The position numbers and the translations under genes were made by a program. A stretch of DNA of 32,000 bases from Flavobacteriaceae bacterium (GTDB taxonomy: Bacteria; Bacteroidota; Bacteroidia; Flavobacteriales; Flavobacteriaceae): positions 3,960,001 through 3,992,000 of the forward strand of contig OZ245049.1 in the NCBI GenBank assembly GCA_965224465.1, read 5' to 3'. This document shows positions 4,632 to 27,966 of this stretch, in pieces (the stretch's first letter is position 1; every line of letters begins with the position of its first letter). The notes beneath the pieces are model-generated. The model did not search any database and was not told the DNA's origin. It worked only from the letters and a program-made list of their open reading frames with translations.

Positions 4632-4787
4632 GTGTTTAGTAGTTATTGATTTTCTTCTTTTAATCGCAAAGTGATAGTCAATTGGATTTAATCCACCAGG
4701 CTGATGTGTCGAAAAAAAGAGGAATGCTATTCAAGACTTCGTGCTCTTGGCTTTTTATGCCTGTTTCAAGTACCATATTCCTAATAC

Positions 4788-4946
4788 TGCCAAACACATT
4801 TCTAAGTGACGGTTTAGAAATGGAATTGTTTTTTGTTTTACCTAGGCGGAAATCCGAAGGATATCCGTAGCTATCGTTCTGTTTTTTAACATCGATAAAA
4901 CGTAAAATATATCATTTATACCGATCATTTTGGGTTGTAATTGGCA
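4788..4946 (+). repeat. MITE-like intergenic repeat, copy A (long form)
   Basis: Aligns over its full length with copies B, D and E. Shared blocks are TGCCAAACACATTTCTAAGTGACGGTTTAGAAATGGAATT, a central hairpin, and ACGTAAAA..CATTTATACCGATCATTTTGGGTTGTAATTGGCA. Confidence 0.85.
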
Positions 4947-4991
4947 TCCTTGTGAACGCTGGGGCTAGCGTTAGAGAAAAGAATCAAGTGT

Positions 4992-5023
4992 AAAAAAAGC
5001 CCTCCAAACCATAAGTTTAGAGG
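4992..5023 (-). terminator. intrinsic terminator of the beta-galactosidase gene
   Basis: On the - strand, CCTCTAAAC-ttatg-GTTTGGAGG (9 bp including one G-U) is followed by GCTTTTTTT. The mismatch is C-A on the + strand, so it folds better in the - sense. Confidence 0.75.
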
Positions 5024-5059
5024 ACTGTTTCTCAAATAAAACAAAATTGTTTTTACAGC

Positions 5060-8000
5060 TTATTTTGCATTACTGTATAATTTACTGAGTTTTATAAATT
5101 GCTCTTTATTTCCTTTATCAAAAGGGATAAGTAAAAAACTATAACGGTGTGTTTTGCTTCCCATGGTTTGATACTTTTTTTGAGGCTTTGAATACCAGCT
5201 ATCATCACCTGCAAGTCCTCGCTGTTTCAAATCTATATTTACCTGCACTAAATCTTGTTCTTTAATATCTATGGTGTGCTTGCTTTTGTTCATAGCAGGG
5301 ATTCCATCAATTCTATAACTGTCATCTATTTTTTCATTCCCATAGTTAAGGTCAGCTGTGGTGTCAAAGTCCTCGTTTGGCATGTGTAAAGCACTAAAAC
5401 AAAAATGTTGGTTTGTTGCTTGTACTACAAGAAGTCCTGATCCATCACTGTTGGAGAGTGCCATCCAGCGGACATCGGTTTTATAGCCGTTTTCTTGTGG
5501 TCGAATATAAGGTACATATTGCTCTTTTACACTGCTGTTGTAAAGTCCCACAAAGGCACTGTGTTTTCTGTCTTGATAGTTCTCCCATGGGCCTCTACCA
5601 AAATAGCTAAGGCTGTTGTATTCTTGTTTCAATTGCAAACGCATTCCTATACGTGGAATGTCTGCTTTGTACGAGGTTTTGTGTAGGGTATTACTTATTT
5701 TAATAACTCCATTTCCGTATATGAGATAGTCAGAATCAAAAGTAGTTTCCACCCCCGGTAATTTGTATGTCACGTGTAATTGTACACTTCCATTGTCCAA
5801 AACCTGATGAGAAACACTGCTAACAGTAGAAAATAAAGAGGCTTTTTTCCATTCTATATTTTTTACCTGCATTTTATTTCCAAAATCATTATCAGTCATT
5901 GCTCTCCAGAAATTTGGTTTTGGTCCTTTTTTATCGTTTAAAAGTTCTTTCCCTTTAATTTTATAAGAGATAATTCTCCCTTGCTTCTTGTCAAAAACAA
6001 CACCTATATTTTTGTTGTAGATGCGAGTTTGAGAACGAACTGTTTTTACTTTTAGATGGTGTTGGTTTGAAATTTCAGTAATTTTCTGACGGTATTTTCT
6101 TGTGAGTGCTATCTGTTCGTGAGCAATTTCAAATCCTTTTTTTAATAAGCCCCAATCCTTTTTAAGTTGTGCGCTTATCGTTACAAAATACTCGGTGTTT
6201 TCTTCAAAATTAATAGCGTTTAAAGGGATTCTAATCAGCTCTCCTGTATGTGTGGTAACACTAATTTCTGGAAGGTTTATTGTTTTTAAGACCTTGCCAT
6301 CTGCTTTAATTTGTGCTGTAAAATTAAATTGATTCAAATTGGTAAAATCATAAAGGTTTTCTAATAATATACGTAGCTCATTATGACGATTGATGCCCTT
6401 TGCTTTAAAGTTGATAAACTCATGAGCCTTTTTTACTTCGTACAATGCAGGTTGTGGTGTTCTGTCAGGAAATACGATTCCATTGTTTAAGAAGGTGTTA
6501 TCCGTTGGCATATTTTTTCCGTAATCACCCCCATAAGCGTAATATCGTTCTCCTTTATCGTTGGTCTTCCAAATAGATTGATCTACCCAATCCCAAATAA
6601 AACCTCCTTGTAGATTGTCATATTTTTCAATTACGTCCCAGTAGTCTTGAAAATTCCCTGTGCTATTCCCCATGGCGTGTGCATATTCACTTGGAATATA
6701 TGGTTTATTGGTAAGGCTTTGTCCTACTTGTTCAAAGGTTCGAGGAGAAGGGTATTGAGGTACAATAATATCTGTGTTCCAGTCCATGTCGTATAAACTG
6801 CCATCTCTATCTTTGTAAGGGCGTTCGTATTGCACAGGACGCTTTGTTTGGTCTATGGCTTTGATTGCCTTGTATCCTGCGTAGAAATTGATACCGTTTC
6901 CTGCTTCGTTCCCCATGGACCAAATGATTACAGAAGGGTGGTTCCTATCTCGTTTTACCATGCGTGTCATTCTGTCCACATGAGATTTTTCCCAGTTGGC
7001 TTTTTTTGCTAAGGAATGGGTGCCGTAATACATTCCGTGTGATTCTATATTTGCCTCGTCCACCACATAGATTCCGTATTGATCACATAACTCATAAAAA
7101 CGATGCCCTCTAGGGTAATGGCTCAATCGGACTGCATTTATATTATTTTCTTTCCATAGTTGAATGTCTTTTAAAATAAGTGCTTCACTCATTACATGCC
7201 CCGTTTCTGGGTCTGCCTCTTGGGTGTTTACTCCTTTTAATGTAATGCGTTGCCCGTTTACTAGGAGTAGACCTTGTTTGATCTCTACAGATCTAAAACC
7301 AATCTGACGTTCTATAATCTCTAAGAGTTTACCTCTTTTAGTATGTGTTTCTATTCTTAAGGTATATAAATTAGGGTGTTCTGCACTCCATGGCGCTACC
7401 GCTTTTAGTACTGAATTAAAAGAAAATGTTTGACGTTTCCCAGCGCTGCATTCTAAATCTTGTGTTCCTTTGGCAAGGGAAGTTCCATTTTTAAGTATTG
7501 CATAAGATACTTTTATTTTTTCAGCCTTGGAATTGTGGTTTTCTAGGCGGATGTCTAGCTTAAATATTCCGTCCTCATATCCTTTGTCTAAGCGGGATAA
7601 GACTTCAAAATCTTGGATGCGTGTTTTTGGTTGAGCGTATATAAATACATCACGTTCGATACCGCTAATTCTCCAGAAATCTTGACATTCTAAATAGCTT
7701 CCATCTGTCCATCTGAAAATCTGAATGGCTAGGGTGTTTTTTCCTTTTTTAGCAGCGTGGGTAATATTGAATTCACTCGGTAATTTACTGCCTTGTGAAT
7801 AGCCTATATATTGACCGTTTAACCATACAAATCCACCCGATTTCATGGCGCCAATATGTAAGAAAATCTCTTTTTTGTTCCATTTTTTGTCGATATTAAA
7901 ATCGCGACGATACGATCCTACAGGGTTGTATTGGTGTGGGACGTGTCCTGGATACTTAGGGTAAATTCCATCCAATTCCATGTCCGAAGCAATCGGAGCT

Positions 8001-8380
8001 TTATAATCGGAAAACTCATATTGATGATTTACATAGATAGGAACACCGTAGCCTTCTATTTCCCAGTTTGAAGGAACTTTAATAGTATTCCAAGAGGAAA
8101 GGTCCTCACTCGGGTTCATGAAAGTTAAAGGTCTATCTTTAGGGTTTTTTACCCAATTGAATTTCCAAAGACCATTCAATGATTTTTTGACTTGTGAATG
8201 CGTGTTTTTTATGTTTTTTTTAGAAGAAAACGAAGTGAAACTGGCATGTGCATCTTCTTTGTTTTCGGATATTACTTGCTCATTTTCAATATAATGCCAA
8301 ATGGAATTTGGAAGTTTGTTTTGCGAAAACCCAATCGCAGTAATAAATGATAATAAGAGTGAGGCTGTCAAGTTCTTCAT
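5060..8380 (-). CDS. lacZ: secreted glycoside hydrolase family 2 beta-galactosidase
   Basis: 1106 aa with an N-terminal signal peptide (MKNLTASLLLSFITAIGFSQ). WSMGNEAGNG matches the LacZ acid/base Glu region and PSEYAHAMGNS matches the nucleophile Glu region. Confidence 0.92.
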   Translation of the reverse strand: MKNLTASLLLSFITAIGFSQNKLPNSIWHYIENEQVISENKEDAHASFTSFSSKKNIKNTHSQVKKSLNGLWKFNWVKNPKDRPLTFMNPSEDLSSWNTIKVPSNWEIEGYGVPIYVNHQYEFSDYKAPIASDMELDGIYPKYPGHVPHQYNPVGSYRRDFNIDKKWNKKEIFLHIGAMKSGGFVWLNGQYIGYSQGSKLPSEFNITHAAKKGKNTLAIQIFRWTDGSYLECQDFWRISGIERDVFIYAQPKTRIQDFEVLSRLDKGYEDGIFKLDIRLENHNSKAEKIKVSYAILKNGTSLAKGTQDLECSAGKRQTFSFNSVLKAVAPWSAEHPNLYTLRIETHTKRGKLLEIIERQIGFRSVEIKQGLLLVNGQRITLKGVNTQEADPETGHVMSEALILKDIQLWKENNINAVRLSHYPRGHRFYELCDQYGIYVVDEANIESHGMYYGTHSLAKKANWEKSHVDRMTRMVKRDRNHPSVIIWSMGNEAGNGINFYAGYKAIKAIDQTKRPVQYERPYKDRDGSLYDMDWNTDIIVPQYPSPRTFEQVGQSLTNKPYIPSEYAHAMGNSTGNFQDYWDVIEKYDNLQGGFIWDWVDQSIWKTNDKGERYYAYGGDYGKNMPTDNTFLNNGIVFPDRTPQPALYEVKKAHEFINFKAKGINRHNELRILLENLYDFTNLNQFNFTAQIKADGKVLKTINLPEISVTTHTGELIRIPLNAINFEENTEYFVTISAQLKKDWGLLKKGFEIAHEQIALTRKYRQKITEISNQHHLKVKTVRSQTRIYNKNIGVVFDKKQGRIISYKIKGKELLNDKKGPKPNFWRAMTDNDFGNKMQVKNIEWKKASLFSTVSSVSHQVLDNGSVQLHVTYKLPGVETTFDSDYLIYGNGVIKISNTLHKTSYKADIPRIGMRLQLKQEYNSLSYFGRGPWENYQDRKHSAFVGLYNSSVKEQYVPYIRPQENGYKTDVRWMALSNSDGSGLLVVQATNQHFCFSALHMPNEDFDTTADLNYGNEKIDDSYRIDGIPAMNKSKHTIDIKEQDLVQVNIDLKQRGLAGDDSWYSKPQKKYQTMGSKTHRYSFLLIPFDKGNKEQFIKLSKLYSNAK

Positions 8381-8753
8381 AAAATAGTTTCTAAAAAATT
8401 GTTCTTTAGCAAGTTAATATAATTATGATGTTTAGGATTCAAGACGGATCAAAGTAAGTAAATATATCTACGAATACGTTTTCGTAAAATTCGTATATCA
8501 ATTATTGATTCTCAATTGAAAGTAATGTGTTGCTTTTTTTGATTATTATAAACTTCTTATTATTTATTTAAACGTATTTTTTACATTTATAGCACTTGTT
8601 TTTTGTTTAAAACGTCAATAATTTGTTTTAAGAGTAAAAAGAACATCCATATAGTGGATTAAGGTTAAGTGCCATGGATTTGAATTTAAGCTGTCCAGAT
8701 TGTTTCTTTTAACGGAAGGGACTTTAAATATTGTTTTGAAAACAGATGTTTTA

Positions 8754-8912
8754 TACCCACTACATTTCCAAGTGACGGTTTAGAAATGGAATTATTTTTT
8801 GTTTTAGCTAGGCGAAACATTTTTGGATAGCCTTAGCTATCGTTCTGTTTTTCAACAACGATAAAACGTAAAATAAACTATTTATATCGGTTCTTTTGGA
8901 TTGTAGTTGGTA
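8754..8912 (+). repeat. MITE-like intergenic repeat, copy B (long form, archetype)
   Basis: Runs from TACCCACTACATTTCCAAGTGACGGTTTAGAAATGGAATT to TTTGGATTGTAGTTGGTA. It has a central 8-bp hairpin (8806-8838) and is flanked by TTA on both sides. Confidence 0.85.
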
Positions 8913-8970
8913 TTAGTAGGTTTGTTTTTGGTCTTCATAAATACAGGGTTTTTTGGAGTGTAAAGTCCAT

Positions 8971-9002
8971 AAAAAAGCCCCAAGGAAAAATCCGAGGGGC
9001 TT
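8971..9002 (-). terminator. intrinsic terminator of the DEAD-box helicase gene
   Basis: On the - strand, AGCCCC-14 nt-GGGGCT is followed by a T-run (complement of the A-run at 8971-8975). It lies 32 bp beyond the stop codon. Confidence 0.7.
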
Positions 9003-9033
9003 GTGTTTTAGTGTTGGGTATACTATCAAAAAC

Positions 9034-10389: not shown

Positions 10390-10978
10390 GACTAATTAAA
10401 ATTAGGGTTTTTCTTTTTTTATTGTTGAGATTAAAGGAATTAAATTTCATAGGGTTTTAGCTGATTTTCTAAATATATCTGTGTTTTTTTTTGAAAATTG
10501 TTTTTTTTTCATAAATTAGAATTTTAAAAAATGAAGTTTCCCCTTATTTTATTTATAAGTAGCAGAAGATAGTTCACAACATTGTCTCATTAAAAACGCA
10601 TGCTTATGTAATAATAAACACAAAGGAGGAGCTTGCGATAAAAGAAGTAAATTTCCTAGCTTCTTGCCAAATTGAATCATCACCATATGCTAAGGTATTT
10701 AAAAAATAAAATTCATGGGTTTTAGGCATTGTAGCAATGGTAGTAATTATGTTAGTTAGGACATCCCTGATTTATGTGAAACAAGTTAAAGGATTTATGG
10801 ATGATAGGGTTGTGTGCAGAATCTTGTAAAAATGTGAGTTGGATTCAGGTGTCTTATGCTTAATATATTTATAGAGGAGTAAATTATAAAAAAACACAAT
10901 AGCCTTATTAAATCTTAAATTCAATTATAAAATGAAATAGGTTTATTGTGATAAATAAAATTTTAAATAGCGATAAAA

Positions 10979-11722
10979 ATGAATATTAAAAAATGGATAG
11001 TAATAGTTGTTCTTGTTGTTTTTAATCCAACGCCATCAAATTCTCAATCCAATACTGGAAAAGTGATTTACCGAGCATCGATAAATACGGACAGTTATGT
11101 GGAGGGGATTAAAAAAGATAAGCGTATTAAAGAAGATATAAAGAAATTAAAAATGAGTAATGCTTCGCGTTCAATACCTATGAATTTTTTTCTTTTTTTT
11201 AATGGAAATGAATCACTTTACCATGCTGAATATGATTTAAATGAACAGAGAGATATGCAAATAGGATGGAATCAAACAGGGGTAGTGGCAGGTGATGATT
11301 ATATTAGTTATGTAAACATAGCAACAAAAGAAAATTTAAAGCAAAATTTTTTCTTAGATAAATTACTTATAAGTGTAGTTCCATTAGAATGGGTATTGAC
11401 ACAAGAAACCAAAAAAATTGGAGACTATATTTGTTTTAAAGCCACATCAATTCTAAAGGAAGAACGTGAAGAAGGAGGGTGTTATTCTGAACCAATTACG
11501 GCTTGGTATACACCAGAAATCCCTGTAACATTCGGAATTCAAAATTTCACGGGATTGCCTGGGTTAACATTAGAGTTGTTTATAGAGACAAAATATGGGG
11601 AACTCCAGTACAAAGCAACGAGTATAGAATTAAATGTAAAAAAAATAAAAATAAAAAAACCTAAAGGAAAAGTCATTACACATAAGAAATATATAGAATT
11701 AATAAGTGGGTTTAGGAATTAG
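10979..11722 (+). CDS. GLPGLI family protein (function unknown)
   Basis: 247 aa with a signal peptide and the family-defining motif near the C-terminal third (FTGLPGLTLEL). It is very Asn/Lys/Ile-rich. Confidence 0.8.
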   Translation: MNIKKWIVIVVLVVFNPTPSNSQSNTGKVIYRASINTDSYVEGIKKDKRIKEDIKKLKMSNASRSIPMNFFLFFNGNESLYHAEYDLNEQRDMQIGWNQTGVVAGDDYISYVNIATKENLKQNFFLDKLLISVVPLEWVLTQETKKIGDYICFKATSILKEEREEGGCYSEPITAWYTPEIPVTFGIQNFTGLPGLTLELFIETKYGELQYKATSIELNVKKIKIKKPKGKVITHKKYIELISGFRN

Positions 11723-11724
11723 AT

Positions 11725-14400
11725 ATGGCTGTGCATCAGAATTTTAGAAAGTGTTTTTCGGTATTTTTTCTTGCTTTTATATCAATTCACATGACATCTC
11801 AAACACATGCCTTGAAGGGGATTGTAAGAGATTCTTTGCAGAATAGCATCCCCTTTGTAAGTATAATTGCAAAGCCAGACCTTAGTAACATGCCCATGAA
11901 GTTTACCATGTCTGATGATAAAGGGAGGTACAATTTAGAGCTAGTGGCAAATGTTATTTATCAAATTTCTGTAAGTCATTTAGGGTATAATTCACTTGAA
12001 TTTAAGTTTAATTCAATTAAAAATACGCAAAAAAACATTTTATTGGTTGAGAACTTAAATCAATTAGACGAAATTATTATTGAGCTTCCGATACTGGTTA
12101 AGCGTGATACTATAATCTATAATGTTAGTAAATTTGTTAATGGTGAAGAACAAAAACTGAAGGATGTTTTAAGGAAATTGCCTGGGATTGAGGTTTCTAA
12201 AAACGGAGAGGTTACAAGTAATGGGAAGGTAGTAACACATTTGCTAGTTGAGGGGAAAAACTTTTTTGGAGGGAATAGTAAGTTAGCCGTAGAGAATATC
12301 CCTGCAGATGCAATAAAAAAAGTAGAGGTAATAGATGATTATAATGAGGTTGCGCTGTTAAAAGGGCTAGAGGATTCTGACAAATTAGCAATGAATATCA
12401 AATTAAAAGAAGGGAAAAAAAACTTTCTATTTGGAGATGTTGAAATTGGGAAAGGGAATAAGAGGTTTTATAAATCACATTCAAACCTTTTTTATTATAA
12501 CCCCAGTTTTAATATTAATTTTATTGGTAACATCAATAATGTAGGAGAAAAAACATTCACATTTAAAGATTATCTAAATTTTAAAGGAACGCGTTCATCT
12601 GTTTTTAAAATGAAAAGTTATGACTTAGATTTAAAAAACATGTCTCAGTTTATGGGGGCAATAAATGTTGTTAAGACGGAGCGTAGCGTTGCTGCTTTAA
12701 ATATTTCTAAATCCATTGATAAAAAGTTAGATGTAACAGGGTATTTGATTTATTCACATTCAAATTCTCAGAGTAATGAATCTATAACCAATCAATATGT
12801 TATTCCGAATAAGGTATATGTGGAAGATTTGGAGAAGAAAGAAGTTAAAATAAATGATTTTGGTATTGCAAAATTAGCGATAAAGTATCGTCCGAATAGC
12901 TTAGAAAGCGGGAATTTTAATTTTCATTTTAAGAGCTCAAATAGTTCTATGAATTCAAGCTTGCTATCGCAAATTAATTCAGAAAAAAACACGATAGAAG
13001 ACCTAAAAGAAAATGCAAGTAGAAATGTAAATACTAATTTAGAGTGGCATAAAAAAGTATCGAAAAAACATATACTTTCTTTGAACTCATCTTTCGTATA
13101 TGATAAAAATAATCCCTACTCTGTTTTGGAATCGGATCAACTATTATTTCAGGATCTAATAAATCTATTACCTGCTGAAAAATATATGTTGATATCTAGA
13201 AAAAAAATGGATAACAGTGTTTTTTCTTTGCGATTAAAATATTATTGGGTTTTGAATAGGAAGGTTCAAATAGCAACATCAATAGGGAACGAAAAAAGAT
13301 GGAATGATTTTATAACAACTGATTCCCAGTTGTCAAACAATAATTATGTAGATTTTTCTGATTCAAATTTTAATAATAACCTTACATTTAAATTGAATGA
13401 ATCTTATATTGGTATTGCTGTTAAATATAGAACAGGGAAATTTCAATTCAAACCAAGTGTCTATCTCCAGAAGTATTACTGGAGTGTAAAACAATCAAAT
13501 TATTTAGCTGAAAATAAATTAGTTGTACTTCCTGGTTTTGTTACAAAATGGAATCTGAGTCAAACAGATAAAATTAAATTAACCTATAAATTACAGAGTG
13601 CTTTTCCTGGAGGTGCCTCTTTTTCTAATAAATTTTATATAAATTCTTATAATCAAATTAACATAGGAAATGAACATATAGAAAATGAATTACAACACTT
13701 TTCTAGTCTTTATTATACAACAACAAATCTATATAGGAGGTTTTTCTTATTGGCTGAAGTTAATTTTATTAAAAAAATAAAGGGATTGCAAACCGTTGTT
13801 GAAACTATGGGGCGTGATAATTATGTGTCTATGAAATTTGTAGATGAACCAAGTGAAAGAATGAGTGGGGTGTTAATTATAAACAAGAGCTTTAAAGATA
13901 TTAAATATCAGCTTAGAGGAAGAGTCAATTCTTTTCAATATGTTGAGAATGTCAATTCAAATTTGGTTAAAAATAAACATGTAAATAGCTTGTTTAAATT
14001 TTCGGTAAAATCCTTGCATAAAGGGTTTCCGAGTATTGAAATGGGCTATAAACAAGGGTTTAGTAACTATGTCTCTGGAAGGCAGACGTTAAAATTCAGT
14101 ACTTATGAGCCCTATGTGACTTTCAATTATAAAATGTTAAATAAAATAAATTTCTTATTAGATTATTCATATTATATTAGAAAGAACAATGCATTGAATA
14201 AAAAGGATACTTATCATACAAACAAATTAATAATCAGTTACAAAGAGGGAAGTTCCTCTTGGGAATTTAAATGTTCATTACAAAATATTTTGAATAATAA
14301 ATCACAAAATAAAAACAGCTTTAATAGTTATATTATTTCTGATACTAAATCTTATATCTTACCTAGAATAGGTGTGTTTTCAGTCATATACAAGTTATAG
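11725..14400 (+). CDS. outer-membrane beta-barrel protein with N-terminal carboxypeptidase-regulatory-like domain (TonB-dependent-receptor-like)
   Basis: 891 aa with a signal peptide and a CarboxypepD_reg-like start (LKGIVRDSLQNSIPFVSIIAKPD...DDKGRYNLEL...ISVSHLGYNS), followed by a plug-like segment. The C-terminus is aromatic (VFSVIYKL). It starts 2 nt after the GLPGLI stop. Confidence 0.8.
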   Translation: MAVHQNFRKCFSVFFLAFISIHMTSQTHALKGIVRDSLQNSIPFVSIIAKPDLSNMPMKFTMSDDKGRYNLELVANVIYQISVSHLGYNSLEFKFNSIKNTQKNILLVENLNQLDEIIIELPILVKRDTIIYNVSKFVNGEEQKLKDVLRKLPGIEVSKNGEVTSNGKVVTHLLVEGKNFFGGNSKLAVENIPADAIKKVEVIDDYNEVALLKGLEDSDKLAMNIKLKEGKKNFLFGDVEIGKGNKRFYKSHSNLFYYNPSFNINFIGNINNVGEKTFTFKDYLNFKGTRSSVFKMKSYDLDLKNMSQFMGAINVVKTERSVAALNISKSIDKKLDVTGYLIYSHSNSQSNESITNQYVIPNKVYVEDLEKKEVKINDFGIAKLAIKYRPNSLESGNFNFHFKSSNSSMNSSLLSQINSEKNTIEDLKENASRNVNTNLEWHKKVSKKHILSLNSSFVYDKNNPYSVLESDQLLFQDLINLLPAEKYMLISRKKMDNSVFSLRLKYYWVLNRKVQIATSIGNEKRWNDFITTDSQLSNNNYVDFSDSNFNNNLTFKLNESYIGIAVKYRTGKFQFKPSVYLQKYYWSVKQSNYLAENKLVVLPGFVTKWNLSQTDKIKLTYKLQSAFPGGASFSNKFYINSYNQINIGNEHIENELQHFSSLYYTTTNLYRRFFLLAEVNFIKKIKGLQTVVETMGRDNYVSMKFVDEPSERMSGVLIINKSFKDIKYQLRGRVNSFQYVENVNSNLVKNKHVNSLFKFSVKSLHKGFPSIEMGYKQGFSNYVSGRQTLKFSTYEPYVTFNYKMLNKINFLLDYSYYIRKNNALNKKDTYHTNKLIISYKEGSSSWEFKCSLQNILNNKSQNKNSFNSYIISDTKSYILPRIGVFSVIYKL

Positions 14401-14549
14401 TACCAATTACAATCCAAAGTAACCGATATAAATAGTTTGTTTTACGTTCTAGCGTTGTTAAAAAAAAGCTAAGGCTGTCCTTCGATTTCTCGCCTAGCCA
14501 ATACAAAAATTAATTCCATTTCTAAACTGTCACTTGGAAAGTGAATTCT
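14401..14549 (-). repeat. MITE-like intergenic repeat, copy E (inverted orientation)
   Basis: The reverse complement aligns with copies A, B and D. It begins immediately after the TAG stop of the OMP gene. The 5' terminal inverted repeat is degenerate, and an internal ~8-nt deletion places T8 directly after the central hairpin. Confidence 0.85.
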
Positions 14550-14581
14550 TTCATGAGAGATTAAAAGCAGTTTTTTCTTCT

Positions 14582-16171
14582 TTATTCCATTCGCTCAAAC
14601 AATAATTTCACCTCAGGATCCCAGTCCAAACTCCTTACCTTTTTCTTTCGTTTAATAGAAATAGCCGCTGTTTTTTTAGTAATATTTATCGTTTTTATTT
14701 CCGAACTACCATCGGTATAATTAATAGCGAGTTCTAGCGGGAAAGAAATGGGGGTTTGTTGGGTTTGTACAATGTTAAATTGGATGTTTTTACCGTGCTG
14801 TTTCCAATTCAACCTTAATATTGGATGCCCAGAGGTAAATAGCCAATCATTAAAAAATAGCGCTAAGTTGTTGCCAGAAACGGTTTCCATTACTTCTCTA
14901 AAATCACGGGTGTTGGCATTACTGAATTTATATTTCTGATAATAGGTACGTAGCCCTTTCCAAAACAGAACATCCCCTAGTTTATTGTGAAGCATGTGTA
15001 AAAACCAAGCGCCTTTTTGATAAGAATTAGCATTGAGTAGCTGTAAATAGTTGGTGGTTTTAGTATCTACTACAGGTGTTTGTTGTTTTTTGTAAAATCG
15101 AATTACTTTCAAACGTTCGTTTTCTAAGCGTTGCTGGAATTTTGTTTTCCCTTGGGTTTCTAGAAAATAAAAATCAGTTAGATAAGTGGCAAACCCTTCG
15201 CTCAACCACAAGTGACTCCAGTGTTTTTCTGTGGCAGAATCACCAAACCATTGATGTGCAATTTCATGAACTAATAAAGCTTCGCTGCCACGTTTTCCAT
15301 CTATAGATTGTTCGTGATAAAAAATATTCCCAGCGTTTTCCATGCCACCAAAACGTGTTTTGGATTGCACATTGGCTAATTTTTCAAAAGGAAAATCGCC
15401 TATTTTGTCAATAAAATAAGCAGTGATGTTTTTAGCAAGGGCATAATCGTAAAATCCTGCTTCCTTATTTTGTGGATAAACCCAGCTAGAAAAGGGAATG
15501 CCATTTAATGCTGCTAATTTTTGTACAGCAAATCGTGCTACCCCTATCACCATTACTTTGGTAGATAGTTGAATGTTGCTTTTATAATGATATAAAACGG
15601 TCATATCATTGATATTGCTTTCTTCTATAAGGACTCCTGTGGCTATTACTTGGTAATGATTTGGAACTGTAACTATAAATTCGACGGTAGCTTTATCTGA
15701 AGGATGATCTACGCAAGGGAACCAATTATGAGCTCTGTTAGGCCAATTGTCAGCAAAAAAAGTGCGGTCTTGGTATTTGTTTTTCTCTATAATTAAACCA
15801 TCGGAAGGAATTCCTTTGTACACAATGGTGTATTTTACAAGGGTATTTAAGGGAACATCATTAATAAATTTCAAATGATTGTTGCGGTGAGAATACCCAA
15901 TAGTAATTCCGTTTTTTAAAACAGCAAGCACTTGCATGCCTTTACCAACATTGTTTTTGGAAGCCAAGTCTAGCTTTATGCTATCTATAGATTGTTTTAC
16001 AATAAGAGCTATCGTACTGCGGCCTTGTATTATATTGTGAGTGTCATTAAGTACGATCTCGTTTTTATAATGTACAATGTCCAACGTATTCAGTTGTTCG
16101 GTATAGGATTGGCTAAATGATAGTTGAGTGATAAAAAGTAAATATGTAAATATGCGTAGGTTATTTTTCAT
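14582..16171 (-). CDS. M1-family zinc aminopeptidase (secreted)
   Basis: 529 aa with a signal peptide, the GGMEN exopeptidase motif, and HEIAHQWFGD...WLSEGFATY (HEXXH-18-E). Confidence 0.9.
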   Translation of the reverse strand: MKNNLRIFTYLLFITQLSFSQSYTEQLNTLDIVHYKNEIVLNDTHNIIQGRSTIALIVKQSIDSIKLDLASKNNVGKGMQVLAVLKNGITIGYSHRNNHLKFINDVPLNTLVKYTIVYKGIPSDGLIIEKNKYQDRTFFADNWPNRAHNWFPCVDHPSDKATVEFIVTVPNHYQVIATGVLIEESNINDMTVLYHYKSNIQLSTKVMVIGVARFAVQKLAALNGIPFSSWVYPQNKEAGFYDYALAKNITAYFIDKIGDFPFEKLANVQSKTRFGGMENAGNIFYHEQSIDGKRGSEALLVHEIAHQWFGDSATEKHWSHLWLSEGFATYLTDFYFLETQGKTKFQQRLENERLKVIRFYKKQQTPVVDTKTTNYLQLLNANSYQKGAWFLHMLHNKLGDVLFWKGLRTYYQKYKFSNANTRDFREVMETVSGNNLALFFNDWLFTSGHPILRLNWKQHGKNIQFNIVQTQQTPISFPLELAINYTDGSSEIKTINITKKTAAISIKRKKKVRSLDWDPEVKLLFERME

Positions 16172-20389: not shown

Positions 20390-20493
20390 TACCAAATACA
20401 TTTCCAAGTGAAGGTTTAGAAATGGAATTATTTTTTGTCTAGCTACAACGTAAAACAACCTATTTATATCGGCCATTTTGGATTGTAATTGGA
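20390..20493 (+). repeat. MITE-like intergenic repeat, copy C (short form, internal deletion)
   Basis: Both termini are intact (TACCAAATACATTTCCAAGTGAAGG... and ...TTTTGGATTGTAATTGGA), but the central hairpin and adjacent segment are missing. It starts 7 bp after the dnaG stop. Confidence 0.8.
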
Positions 20494-20598: not shown

Positions 20599-20786
20599 TA
20601 CCAAATGTATTTTTAAATACCTATTTATATCAAATTCATCTCCAAGTGACGGTTTAGAAATGGAATTATTTTTTGTTTTAGCTAGGCAAAAAAGGGAAGG
20701 ATAGCCGTAGCTATCGTTCTGTTTTTTAACAACGCTAGAACGTAAAATAACCTATTTATATCGGTCATTTTGGATTTTAATTGGTA
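20599..20786 (+). repeat. MITE-like intergenic repeat, copy D (long form with rearranged 5' end)
   Basis: The core and 3' module are near-identical to copy B. Between the 5' terminal inverted repeat and the core sits ~28 nt that repeats part of the element's own 3' module (AAATACCTATTTATATC). It ends exactly at the nadE stop codon. Confidence 0.85.
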
Positions 20787-21575
20787 TTACTTCCATTCGT
20801 TGGGGATCAAACACACAGGAATAGGAACTATCTTATGTTTATTTGCTCGGTTTCGTTGGGTGTATATTTTAAATACTTCCAAGTCTCTTCCTTTAAAGTC
20901 TGTATCTGTTTTTCCTTTCTCTTGAGCAGCCATGGCCCATTCTAATTCGTCGTAAGTAGCGCCTATTTGCTCTTCATCACTACGGCTATCTCCAAATAAA
21001 CCATCGGTAGGTTTTGCTTTTAAGATAGAAGAGGGGACTTGTGCATGTGCTGCTAAGGCTCTTACGTCCGATTTTAATAAATCGGCAATAGGGCTTAAAT
21101 CTACGCCTCCATCACCGTATTTTGTGAAGAATCCAACTCCGAAATCTTCTACTTTATTTCCTGTTCCAGCAACTAGTAATCCTTGGATTCCTGCAAAATA
21201 GTACAAGGTGGTCATGCGCAATCTAGCACGTGTGTTTGCCAATGATAGTGCTACTTTGTCAGAGGGTTCTATGCTAGGCAATACGTTTTTAAAGTCTTCA
21301 AATGTTGAGGTTAAATTCACTTCCAATGAGCGTACATTAGGAAAACGTTTTTTTAATTGGTCTATATGTTCTTTGGCTCTGTTTACTTGGTTTATTCCTT
21401 GGTGAATTGGCATTTCGATGCATAATAGCTCCATTCCAGTTTCTGCACAAAGCGTGGAAGTTAATGCAGAATCAATTCCGCCAGATATTCCAATTACAAA
21501 TCCGTTTACTCCAGCGTTTTCTGCATAGGATTTTAACCATTTAATAATATGTTTTGATACTTTTTCTAAATTCAT
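20787..21575 (-). CDS. nadE: ammonia-dependent NAD+ synthetase
   Basis: 262 aa with the PP-loop GISGGIDSALTS and typical NadE length and blocks. Confidence 0.92.
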   Translation of the reverse strand: MNLEKVSKHIIKWLKSYAENAGVNGFVIGISGGIDSALTSTLCAETGMELLCIEMPIHQGINQVNRAKEHIDQLKKRFPNVRSLEVNLTSTFEDFKNVLPSIEPSDKVALSLANTRARLRMTTLYYFAGIQGLLVAGTGNKVEDFGVGFFTKYGDGGVDLSPIADLLKSDVRALAAHAQVPSSILKAKPTDGLFGDSRSDEEQIGATYDELEWAMAAQEKGKTDTDFKGRDLEVFKIYTQRNRANKHKIVPIPVCLIPNEWK

Positions 21576-22964: not shown

Positions 22965-22971
22965 GTAGTCG

Positions 22972-23110
22972 GTTTTAGCACTGTTGTCTTTTGAGTGGGT
23001 AGTTTGCAGTTGGTGGTAGCACTGTTGCGGGTAGAGTAGGCAGTTTTAGCACTGTTGTCTTTTGAGTGGGCGGTTGCAGTTGGCGGTAGCACTGTTGCGG
23101 GTAGAGTAGG
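22972..23110. repeat. two tandem ~71/70-bp units containing four copies of TAGCACTGTTG
   Basis: Unit 1 starts at 22977 and unit 2 at 23048. They differ by a few substitutions and one 1-nt indel. The 11-mer starts at 22976, 23017, 23047 and 23087. The + strand is G/T-rich. Confidence 0.85.
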
Positions 23111-23152
23111 TAGTAGTATAGGGGTTTTGGAAAATCGTAGTTCTCTAGTTTT

Positions 23153-27849: not shown

Positions 27850-27923
27850 TATTTAGCTAATTGTCAAATCAAAACACAGTACTATTCCGCTTCTAAACCG
27901 GTCACTTGGAAATGTATTTGGTG
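27850..27923 (-). repeat. MITE-like repeat, copy F (truncated and degenerate, 5' half only)
   Basis: The reverse complement reads CACCAAATACATTTCCAAGTGACCGGTTTAGAAGCGGAAT..ATTAGCTA, which matches the 5' terminal inverted repeat and core of the family. No 3' module is present. Confidence 0.65.
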
Positions 27924-27966
27924 TTATTTGTTATGAGTGCTGATTTTTTTAAAAAAACAAAACTAT

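What the first reader, a model, noticed from the sequence alone, without database searches (positions are those of the whole stretch)
8754..8912. Dense family of ~160-bp MITE-like elements with 11-bp terminal inverted repeats: six copies in 32 kb
The same element occurs at six sites:
- A: 4788-4946 (+)
- B: 8754-8912 (+)
- E: 14401-14549 (-)
- C: 20390-20493 (+, short form)
- D: 20599-20786 (+)
- F: 27850-27923 (-, truncated)

The consensus ends are 5' TACCAAATACA and 3' TGTAATTGGTA, which are complementary at 10 of 11 positions. The 26-nt core CCAAGTGACGGTTTAGAAATGGAATT is identical in B and D and has 1-2 changes in A, C and E. The 3' module (ACGTAAAA..CTATTTATATCGG..TTTGGATTGTAATTGGTA) is likewise shared.

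Every copy is intergenic, usually right at stop codons of convergent genes. No transposase is present in the window. Copy B is flanked by TTA/TTA, or by TA/TA if the outermost TA is treated as target; C has TTA/TTG and D has TGA/TTA.

Long and internally deleted short forms, terminal inverted repeats and this placement recall Correia, ERIC and RUP-type non-autonomous elements. I do not recognise this sequence as a described family.
Basis: seen in the sequence. Interest (0 to 1): 0.7.

Follow-up and report, generated by a model that had tools for sequence, protein, structure and literature searches.

The report
Small mobile DNA repeat (MITE) family
The six repeats are copies of a 159-base non-coding mobile element that jumps into TTA/TAA sites, often a gene's stop codon, in a small group of marine Flavobacteriaceae. 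It is a real and probably undescribed family, but of an ordinary, well-known kind.

Summary
The window has four full or nearly full copies (A, B, D, E), one internally deleted copy (C) and one 5' fragment (F); chance expects none. Seven intact copies, three in the window and four in related genomes, are each exactly 159 nt.

The ends are 11-bp inverted repeats (TACCAATTACA / TGTAATTGGTA). All seven intact copies plus a 180-nt variant have identical 3-nt flanks or nearly so: TTA/TTA in five, TAA/TAA in two, and TAC/TCC in copy A.

A filled versus empty orthologous site was found in relatives. Downstream of purF, one North Pond genome has exactly 162 nt (159 + TAA) that two close relatives lack, and both flanks are collinear.

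In three copies the duplicated triplet is the stop codon of the abutting gene. Orientation relative to transcription is mixed. There is no Rfam match and no coding capacity.

The MITE reading is supported. Corrections: D starts at 20628, not 20599, where an older fragment of a variant end lies. The duplication is 3 bp (TWA), not TA.

The transposase that moves the element was not found. The family was found only in this genome and three North Pond MAGs.

This is a new member of a known kind, of modest interest. A stronger fold on one strand and a very conserved 5' core leave a small chance of a secondary RNA-level role.

The parts
4788..4946 (+). Copy A, full length (159 nt). The termini are TGCC...GGCA, a mirrored change in both ends. 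The flanks are TAC/TCC, so the duplication is decayed. It lies between the terminators of tig (+) and lacZ (-).
8751..8753 (.). Left copy of the TTA target-site duplication of B.
8754..8912 (+). Copy B, full length (159 nt). Left inverted repeat 8754-8764; 26-nt conserved core 8768-8793; internal hairpin plus T-run 8826-8851; right inverted repeat 8902-8912.
8913..8915 (.). Right copy of the TTA target-site duplication of B.
14401..14550 (-). Copy E. The 3' end is intact at 14401. The 5' tip is degenerate and there is an 8-nt internal deletion. The flanking triplet 14398-14400 (TAG) is the stop codon of the 891-aa gene 11725..14400. E fills the gap to the convergent M1 peptidase gene.
20390..20493 (+). 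Copy C, short form (104 nt). The central ~55 nt are deleted between two GCTAG direct repeats. The flanks are TTA/TTG. It lies between the dnaG stop codon and the shared bidirectional terminator.
20600..20618 (+). Older fragment of a variant 5' end (ACCAAATGTATTTTTAAAT). D lies next to it. The same variant end is seen at L015 11967-12011 (-).
20625..20627 (.). Left copy of the TTA duplication of D.
20628..20786 (+). Copy D, full length (159 nt). It lies between the bidirectional terminator and the nadE stop codon.
20787..20789 (.). Right copy of the TTA duplication of D. On the minus strand it is the TAA stop codon of nadE (20787..21575). NadE keeps the family-typical 262 aa.
27865..27923 (-). 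Copy F. Only the 5' ~59 nt are present and they are diverged. The flanking triplet at the 5' end is TAA (27924-27926 on the plus strand reads TTA).

Best explanation
This is a family of miniature inverted-repeat transposable elements (MITEs).

Shown:
- The unit is a 159-bp non-coding element. It is bounded by about 11-bp terminal inverted repeats, and looser complementarity extends about 55 nt into each arm.
- It sits between two copies of a 3-bp target (TTA or TAA).
- It occupies different intergenic loci in different genomes.
- At one locus it is present in one genome and precisely absent from two close relatives.

Inferred:
- A DDE-type transposase supplied in trans binds the two ends, makes cuts staggered by 3 bp at a T-W-A target, and joins the element in. 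Gap repair then duplicates the triplet.
- TAA is a stop codon and the duplication restores it. Insertions exactly at the end of a gene are therefore harmless and tend to be kept. Three of eleven copies lie this way.
- Copies then decay (A, E, F) or lose their centre by slippage between short direct repeats (C).
- When transcribed as part of a 3' untranslated region, a copy would form a long hairpin. Any effect on the mRNA is a by-product, not the reason the element exists.
For: Repeat reality.

Uniform size: seven copies align without a single gap at 159 nt.

Inverted repeats: 11/11 in L005; 10/11 in B and L001.

Target duplication: all seven copies with both termini intact have identical flanking triplets, and two alleles occur. 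B, D, L001, L003 and L004 have TTA/TTA. L005 and L006 have TAA/TAA. The flank is therefore a direct repeat that varies with the site and not part of the element.

Filled versus empty site: L001 (NORP129) was compared with L018 (NORP167) and L019 (Ga0105359). The loci are collinear at 88% upstream and 79% downstream. There is one gap of exactly 162 columns, which is 159 + 3. The predicted empty site has the same length as the real one.

Dispersal: the family occurs in three related MAGs at loci unrelated to the window's. Syntenic relatives of the window have no copy at the sites of A to E. The dnaG-nadE spacer of L011 holds only the terminator.

Orientation relative to flanking transcription is mixed.

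There is no ORF of note and no Rfam match.

The short form C is explained by a deletion between GCTAG repeats.
Against: No autonomous element with the same ends was found, so the transposase family is unknown. The only insertion sequence seen in the related loci (L006 1758-3104) has unrelated ends.

The nucleotide-precise empty site is for a copy in a relative, not for a window copy. Intergenic DNA around the window's copies is too diverged from the available relatives (86-92% protein identity) to align.

The 5' subterminal core is about three times better conserved than the rest, and the extreme 5' tip is the least conserved part. Uniform neutral decay would not give this pattern. Part of it is ascertainment, because the relatives were found with a pattern taken from that core.

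The element's plus strand folds much better than its complement. A purely DNA-level parasite need not show this.
Confidence: 0.88

Rival explanations
1. The copies are, or have become, functional structured RNAs. They could be a multi-copy small RNA, or a 3'-UTR stabiliser or processing hairpin. Selection on the RNA hairpin and on the 5' core would then keep the sequence. Mobility would only be how the copies arose.
For: All ten long copies fold better on the element's plus strand, by 6 to 20 kcal/mol.

The consensus fold is -40.3 kcal/mol on the plus strand and -20.5 on the minus strand. G-U oppositions outnumber A-C by 42 to 13 cells, or 20 to 7 columns.

In the consensus fold 95% of cells are paired, and 4 pairs show changes on both sides.

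The 42-nt 5' core has 0.29 minor alleles per column, against 0.8-1.2 elsewhere.

An internal hairpin followed by a T-run resembles a terminator.

C and D lie inside 3' untranslated regions, upstream of the real terminator.
Against: Orientation relative to the flanking transcription is mixed: about 3 sense and 5-6 antisense.

A lies between two terminators.

Covariation is not clearly above the controls. The covariation score was reached by 9/500 shuffles, and the count of pairs changed on both sides by 77/500. All copies share ancestry, so the strand asymmetry is close to a single inherited observation.

There is no Rfam match.

The short form C lacks the whole apical part.

The conservation of the core is inflated because the search pattern came from it.
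Confidence: 0.1
2. The copies are REP/BIME-like or IS200/IS605-type palindromic elements. A tyrosine (HUH) transposase would move them as single-stranded DNA hairpins, or they would serve simply as intergenic terminator palindromes.
For: The whole element is a long imperfect palindrome. The copies sit at gene ends, often between convergent genes. The stronger fold on one strand would suit a single-strand intermediate.
Against: These families make no target-site duplication and have no terminal inverted repeats in the DDE sense (my own knowledge). Here a 3-bp duplication is seen in 7/7 intact copies and in the filled/empty comparison.

At 159 nt the element is several times longer than a REP unit. 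No run of T follows the outer stem, so it is not a classical intrinsic terminator.
Confidence: 0.02

Closest known systems
Tourist-type MITEs, mobilised by PIF/Harbinger transposases (eukaryotes), and their bacterial relatives in the IS5 family
   Same: Both are short non-coding elements with terminal inverted repeats and a 3-bp duplication of a T-W-A target (TTA/TAA). Canonical Harbinger elements make 3-bp duplications and are related to the IS5 family (PMC12730594). The TWA target preference is from my own knowledge.
   Different: This element is bacterial. No IS5-family partner was found. The TACC...GGTA termini do not resemble the G-rich ends I recall for IS5-family elements. IS30-family elements (2-3-bp duplications, common in Bacteroidota; my own knowledge) are an equally open candidate.
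Correia elements (NEMIS) of Neisseria
   Same: Both are about 100-160 bp, with terminal inverted repeats and many intergenic copies. Both have a full form and a form shortened by an internal deletion of about 50 bp. Both are often co-transcribed with neighbouring genes and fold into a hairpin (my own knowledge).
   Different: Correia elements duplicate TA, not a triplet. There is no sequence similarity. The host phylum differs. No promoter or IHF site could be identified here.
ERIC/IRU and RUP elements (Enterobacteria; Streptococcus pneumoniae)
   Same: These are also imperfect palindromes of 107-127 bp. They lie in intergenic or 3'-untranslated regions and form RNA hairpins when transcribed. 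They are thought to be moved in trans by a resident insertion sequence (my own knowledge).
   Different: They use TA targets linked to IS630-type partners. Their sequences and hosts are unrelated. Here the duplication is 3 bp and is frequently the stop codon itself.

Membership tests
MITE (non-autonomous DDE-type transposable element) | Short (well under 500 bp), with no transposase or other coding capacity | tested here: met
   Seven copies are exactly 159 nt. Only incidental ORFs of 27-44 codons overlap B, and they run into the flanks.
MITE (non-autonomous DDE-type transposable element) | Terminal inverted repeats | tested here: met
   TACCAATTACA / TGTAATTGGTA. The match is 11/11 in L005 and 10/11 in B and L001.
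MITE (non-autonomous DDE-type transposable element) | Target-site duplication of fixed length flanking each copy | tested here: met
   The duplication is 3 bp. Five copies have TTA/TTA and two have TAA/TAA, out of 7 copies with intact ends. The inserted length in the filled site is 159 + 3.
MITE (non-autonomous DDE-type transposable element) | Multiple dispersed copies at non-homologous loci | tested here: met
   There are 6 sites in the window and 6 sites in three MAGs, each with different neighbours.
MITE (non-autonomous DDE-type transposable element) | Insertion polymorphism: filled and empty orthologous sites | tested here: met
   The purF 3' end is filled in NORP129 (L001) and empty in NORP167 (L018) and Ga0105359 (L019). 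For the window's own copies there is only a gene-order-level absence in relatives.
MITE (non-autonomous DDE-type transposable element) | A cognate autonomous element with the same ends that encodes the transposase | tested here: inconclusive
   None is present in the window or in about 200 kb of related loci. The one insertion sequence seen has other ends.
IS5 / PIF-Harbinger-mobilised (Tourist-like) MITE | 3-bp duplication of a TWA target | tested here: met
   Only TTA or TAA occurs at intact copies.
IS5 / PIF-Harbinger-mobilised (Tourist-like) MITE | Ends matching those of an IS5-family element in the same or a related genome | not testable with these tools
   There is no access to ISfinder or to the whole source genome. 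The TACC ends do not resemble the GG/GA ends I recall for the family.
   No way of placing the boundaries gives TA/TA at the TAA-flanked and TTA-flanked copies alike. The filled/empty difference is 162 = 159 + 3.
REP/BIME (RAYT) or IS200/IS605-derived palindromic elements | No terminal inverted repeats of the DDE type and no target duplication; short (20-40 nt) palindromes or subterminal hairpins | tested here: not met
   Both a duplication and terminal inverted repeats are present, and the unit is 159 nt.
Any curated RNA family (Rfam 15) | Covariance-model match at or near the gathering score | tested here: not met
   There were 0 matches in the window at gathering thresholds. On copy B with its flanks (8700-8960) the only hit was spurious, with E = 8.

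The most novel reading that the evidence does not exclude
The element is more than a parasite. Its plus-strand hairpin and its invariant 5' core (TTTCCAAGTGACGGTTTAGAAATGGAATT) would be kept by selection. The cause could be that resident copies act as RNA modules in 3' untranslated regions (stabilisers, processing sites, insulators between convergent genes). Alternatively, transposition could go through a strand-specific single-stranded foldback. Together with a preference for TAA stop codons, this would make it a bacterial 'Tourist-like' element that systematically re-tails genes.
Probability: 0.12. Interest if true: 0.5.

Novelty: new member of a known kind. Interest (0 to 1): 0.3.

Why it matters
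The finding adds a well-documented MITE family to the Flavobacteriaceae. My literature searches found no described MITEs in this genus group.

It gives a clean bacterial example of a 3-bp TTA/TAA duplication in which the stop codon itself is the target and is regenerated.

It offers practical markers for strain typing and for spotting recent genome change in a poorly known lineage linked to the subseafloor North Pond aquifer.

It also warns annotators that the long 'structured' intergenic segments in these genomes are mobile DNA rather than RNA genes.

It does not open a new kind of biology.

Tried and rejected
- Rfam at gathering thresholds over the window, and at relaxed thresholds on copy B, gave nothing.
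- The one metagenome scan returned only L007. That is a eukaryotic contig (a tyrosine phosphatase gene with introns) with a chance 23-nt match.
- Three scans of viral contigs and one plasmid search gave nothing.
- The source genome (a 5.24-Mb contig) could not be fetched by exact-protein look-up. I therefore obtained no genome-wide copy number and could not search for the parent element.
- I looked for the parent among the transposases in related loci. The only one (L006 1858-3033; DDE_Tnp_1 + DUF4372) lies in an insertion sequence with 15-bp ends CAATCCCGTCCTAAA, unrelated to the element.
- I tested whether A-lacZ-B is a composite transposon. This was rejected: B has its own TTA/TTA duplication and A's flanks do not match B's.
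- I tested a TA duplication and a no-duplication reading of the purF site. Both were rejected on length: the real empty site matches the 3-bp model with no indel.
- I considered the 14-codon ORF inside the element (MELFFVLARR...). It has a variable length and end, and is cut to 6 codons in C, so I did not pursue it.
- I looked for the Bacteroidota promoter motif (TAnnTTTG) by eye and found no exact match on either strand.
- Literature searches for MITEs in Flavobacteriaceae, Tenacibaculum or Polaribacter found nothing relevant.

Full report

Yes. The repeat finder recovers a family of direct and inverted matches at the listed places. A 23-nt pattern from the core and a 25-nt pattern from the 3' module each hit five sites, with 0.00 expected in shuffled sequence. 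A profile built from the copies finds six sites and nothing else of note in the window.

Exact ends:

| Copy | Coordinates | Strand | Length and state |
|---|---|---|---|
| A | 4788-4946 | + | 159 nt, full |
| B | 8754-8912 | + | 159 nt, full |
| C | 20390-20493 | + | 104 nt, internally deleted |
| D | 20628-20786 | + | 159 nt, full |
| E | 14401 to ~14550 | - | nearly full; 5' tip degenerate |
| F | ~27865-27923 | - | 5' ~59 nt only |

That TACCAAATGTA belongs to a separate short fragment of a variant 5' end, which also occurs in a relative (L015 11967-12011). With the true start, D is flanked by TTA/TTA.

**Anatomy**

Three window copies and four copies from other genomes align without a single gap at exactly 159 nt. 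The tips are 11-bp inverted repeats, TACCAATTACA and TGTAATTGGTA, which match 11/11 in L005 and 10/11 in B and L001.

Looser complementarity continues inward, so a single strand folds into a rod of 57 pairs with a small branched tip. For copy B the fold energy is -46.3 kcal/mol, z = -5.4.

It shows 0.29 minor alleles per column, against 0.8-1.2 elsewhere. Part of this is ascertainment, because the related copies were found with a pattern taken from that core.

The short form C lacks the central ~55 nt. The deletion lies between two GCTAG direct repeats.

There is no coding capacity, no Rfam match, no tRNA and no transposase in the window (gene tables).

**Target-site duplication**

Immediately outside TACC...GGTA, the flanking triplets of the copies with both ends intact are as follows:

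| Copy | Left flank | Right flank |
|---|---|---|
| B | TTA | TTA |
| D | TTA | TTA |
| L001 | TTA | TTA |
| L003 | TTA | TTA |
| L004 | TTA | TTA |
| L005 | TAA | TAA |
| L006 | TAA | TAA |

- All seven copies with both termini intact have identical triplets on the two sides.
- The triplet differs between sites, yet the left and right copies always agree as a direct repeat, not an inverted one. It is therefore target DNA and not part of the element.
- No placement of the boundaries gives a TA duplication.
- The decayed copies deviate: C has TTA/TTG and A has TAC/TCC.

**Mobility**

The six loci there are unrelated to the window's. The metagenome scan added only a chance hit in a eukaryotic contig.

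One of the MAG copies (L001, NORP129) abuts the stop codon of purF. I fetched the orthologous purF loci of NORP167 (L018) and of a JGI contig (L019), whose PurF is 95-96% identical.

- Both loci are collinear with L001 on both sides, at 88% identity upstream and 79% downstream.
- The alignment has one gap of exactly 162 columns, which is the 159-nt element plus one extra TAA.
- The empty site predicted by removing the element and one triplet is GAGCGTAT-TAA-GAAGTAGTGAGATATTAG.
- The real empty site in L019 is GAGCGTAC-TAG-TAAGTTGTGAGATATTAG. It has the same length, with no indel.

**The window's own sites**

The source genome is a 5.24-Mb contig present in NCBI/ENA but unnamed. Its nearest named relatives are Tenacibaculum, at about 74% NadE identity. 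It could not be fetched.

Syntenic contigs from relatives were fetched: NadE 86-92% identical, DEAD helicase at least 90%. The genes align at 77-88% DNA identity. None of these contigs carries the element at the sites of A to E.

The dnaG-nadE spacer of L011 is 140 nt and holds only the shared bidirectional terminator. The window has the same layout plus C on one side of the terminator and D on the other. Intergenic DNA is too diverged at this distance for a base-precise empty site.

**Stop codons as targets**

- In D, the right-hand TTA is the TAA stop of nadE on the other strand. NadE keeps the family's usual 262 aa.
- In L001, the duplicated triplet is the purF stop codon.
- In E, the triplet next to the intact end is the TAG stop of the 891-aa gene.

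That is three of eleven copies. TAA is a T-W-A site and the duplication restores the stop, so such insertions cost nothing. I estimate about 10% by chance, so a true preference is not shown.

**Mechanism**

The shown parts are the ends, the 3-bp duplication, the dispersal and the presence/absence difference. The inferred part is a DDE transposase, acting in trans, that cuts T-W-A targets with a 3-nt stagger.

A 3-bp duplication is canonical for Harbinger elements, and the IS5 family is related to them (PMC12730594). From my own knowledge, Tourist MITEs and several IS5 groups use TTA/TAA, and IS30-family elements also make 2-3-bp duplications.

The partner was not found. The only insertion sequence in the related loci has unrelated ends.

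**Hints of something more**

- Every long copy folds better on the element's plus strand.
- The consensus fold is -40.3 kcal/mol on the plus strand and -20.5 on the minus strand. G-U oppositions outnumber A-C three to one.
- Mirrored changes in both ends occur in A (TGCC/GGCA), B (ACTACA/TGTAGT), and L001 and L003 (TTAAA/TTTAA).

Formal covariation is weak. The covariation score was reached by 9/500 shuffles, and the count of pairs changed on both sides by 77/500. All copies share ancestry. Orientation relative to transcription is mixed, with roughly 3 sense and 5-6 antisense. I therefore give an RNA-level role about 10%.

**Verdict**

- D starts at 20628.
- The duplication is TWA, not TA.
- An IS630 partner is therefore unlikely.
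- A decisive empty site has been added.

This is a new family of a familiar kind, found only in a narrow lineage.

Noticed in passing
window 4640-9030 and 10408-14593: A syntenic relative (scaffold_246, also MAG GCA_016764435.1; loci L015, L011) has different content at these two stretches.

Between tig and the DEAD helicase, the window has a lacZ-like GH2 gene where the relative has a LytTR/histidine-kinase cassette. Between the helicase and the M1 peptidase, the window has two extra genes (a Porph_ging-domain protein and an 891-aa CarboxypepD_reg protein).

Copies A, B and E lie within 45-150 nt of three of the four island borders. By my hypergeometric estimate P is about 0.06, so this is not significant. 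It could still mean that the elements mark or promote rearrangement sites.
   Followed up: partly
window 22965-23114: A 70-nt tandem repeat of 2.1 copies at 91% identity, with 41-nt sub-repeats. It lies in the gldC-HPPK spacer, which does not align with the relatives.
   Followed up: no
L002 4788-4962 and L006 6509-6688: Both loci are from NORP167 and carry a longer subfamily (about 175-180 nt). An extra ~23 nt sits at the same point of the 3' arm, and the same 6-7 nt are missing from the 5' tip. L006 has clean TAA/TAA flanks.
   Followed up: partly
L006 1758-3104: A 1347-bp insertion sequence with perfect 15-bp ends (CAATCCCGTCCTAAA) and a 391-aa DDE_Tnp_1 + DUF4372 transposase. It lies 3.4 kb from a MITE copy but has unrelated ends.
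   Followed up: yes
L008 7292-7725; L013 1-835 and 8180-8739: The relatives' spacers at the same gene junctions hold other short repeats: GACAAGAGACAGGAC-type runs, CCCCTTCGGGGAG hairpins and a called 51-aa ORF. Different repeat families therefore occupy the same intergenic places in different genomes.
   Followed up: no
window 8787-8831 and the same place in other copies: A short ORF starts at the conserved ATG of the core (MELFFVLARR..., 12-17 codons). Its end varies between copies and it is cut to 6 codons in C. It is probably meaningless, but it could be the start of the lost transposase gene.
   Followed up: partly
window 8826-8851, 20700-20725: Inside the element, a 6-bp hairpin (GATAGC-nnnn-GCTATC) followed by GTTCTGTTTTTT scores as terminator-like on the element's plus strand. 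The stem is conserved in nearly all copies.
   Followed up: no
L007 (Ga0114940_10062124) 1622-1644: An exact 23-nt match to the core. The contig looks eukaryotic, carrying a split protein tyrosine phosphatase gene with the VHC..AGVGRTG motif. I take it as a chance hit.
   Followed up: yes
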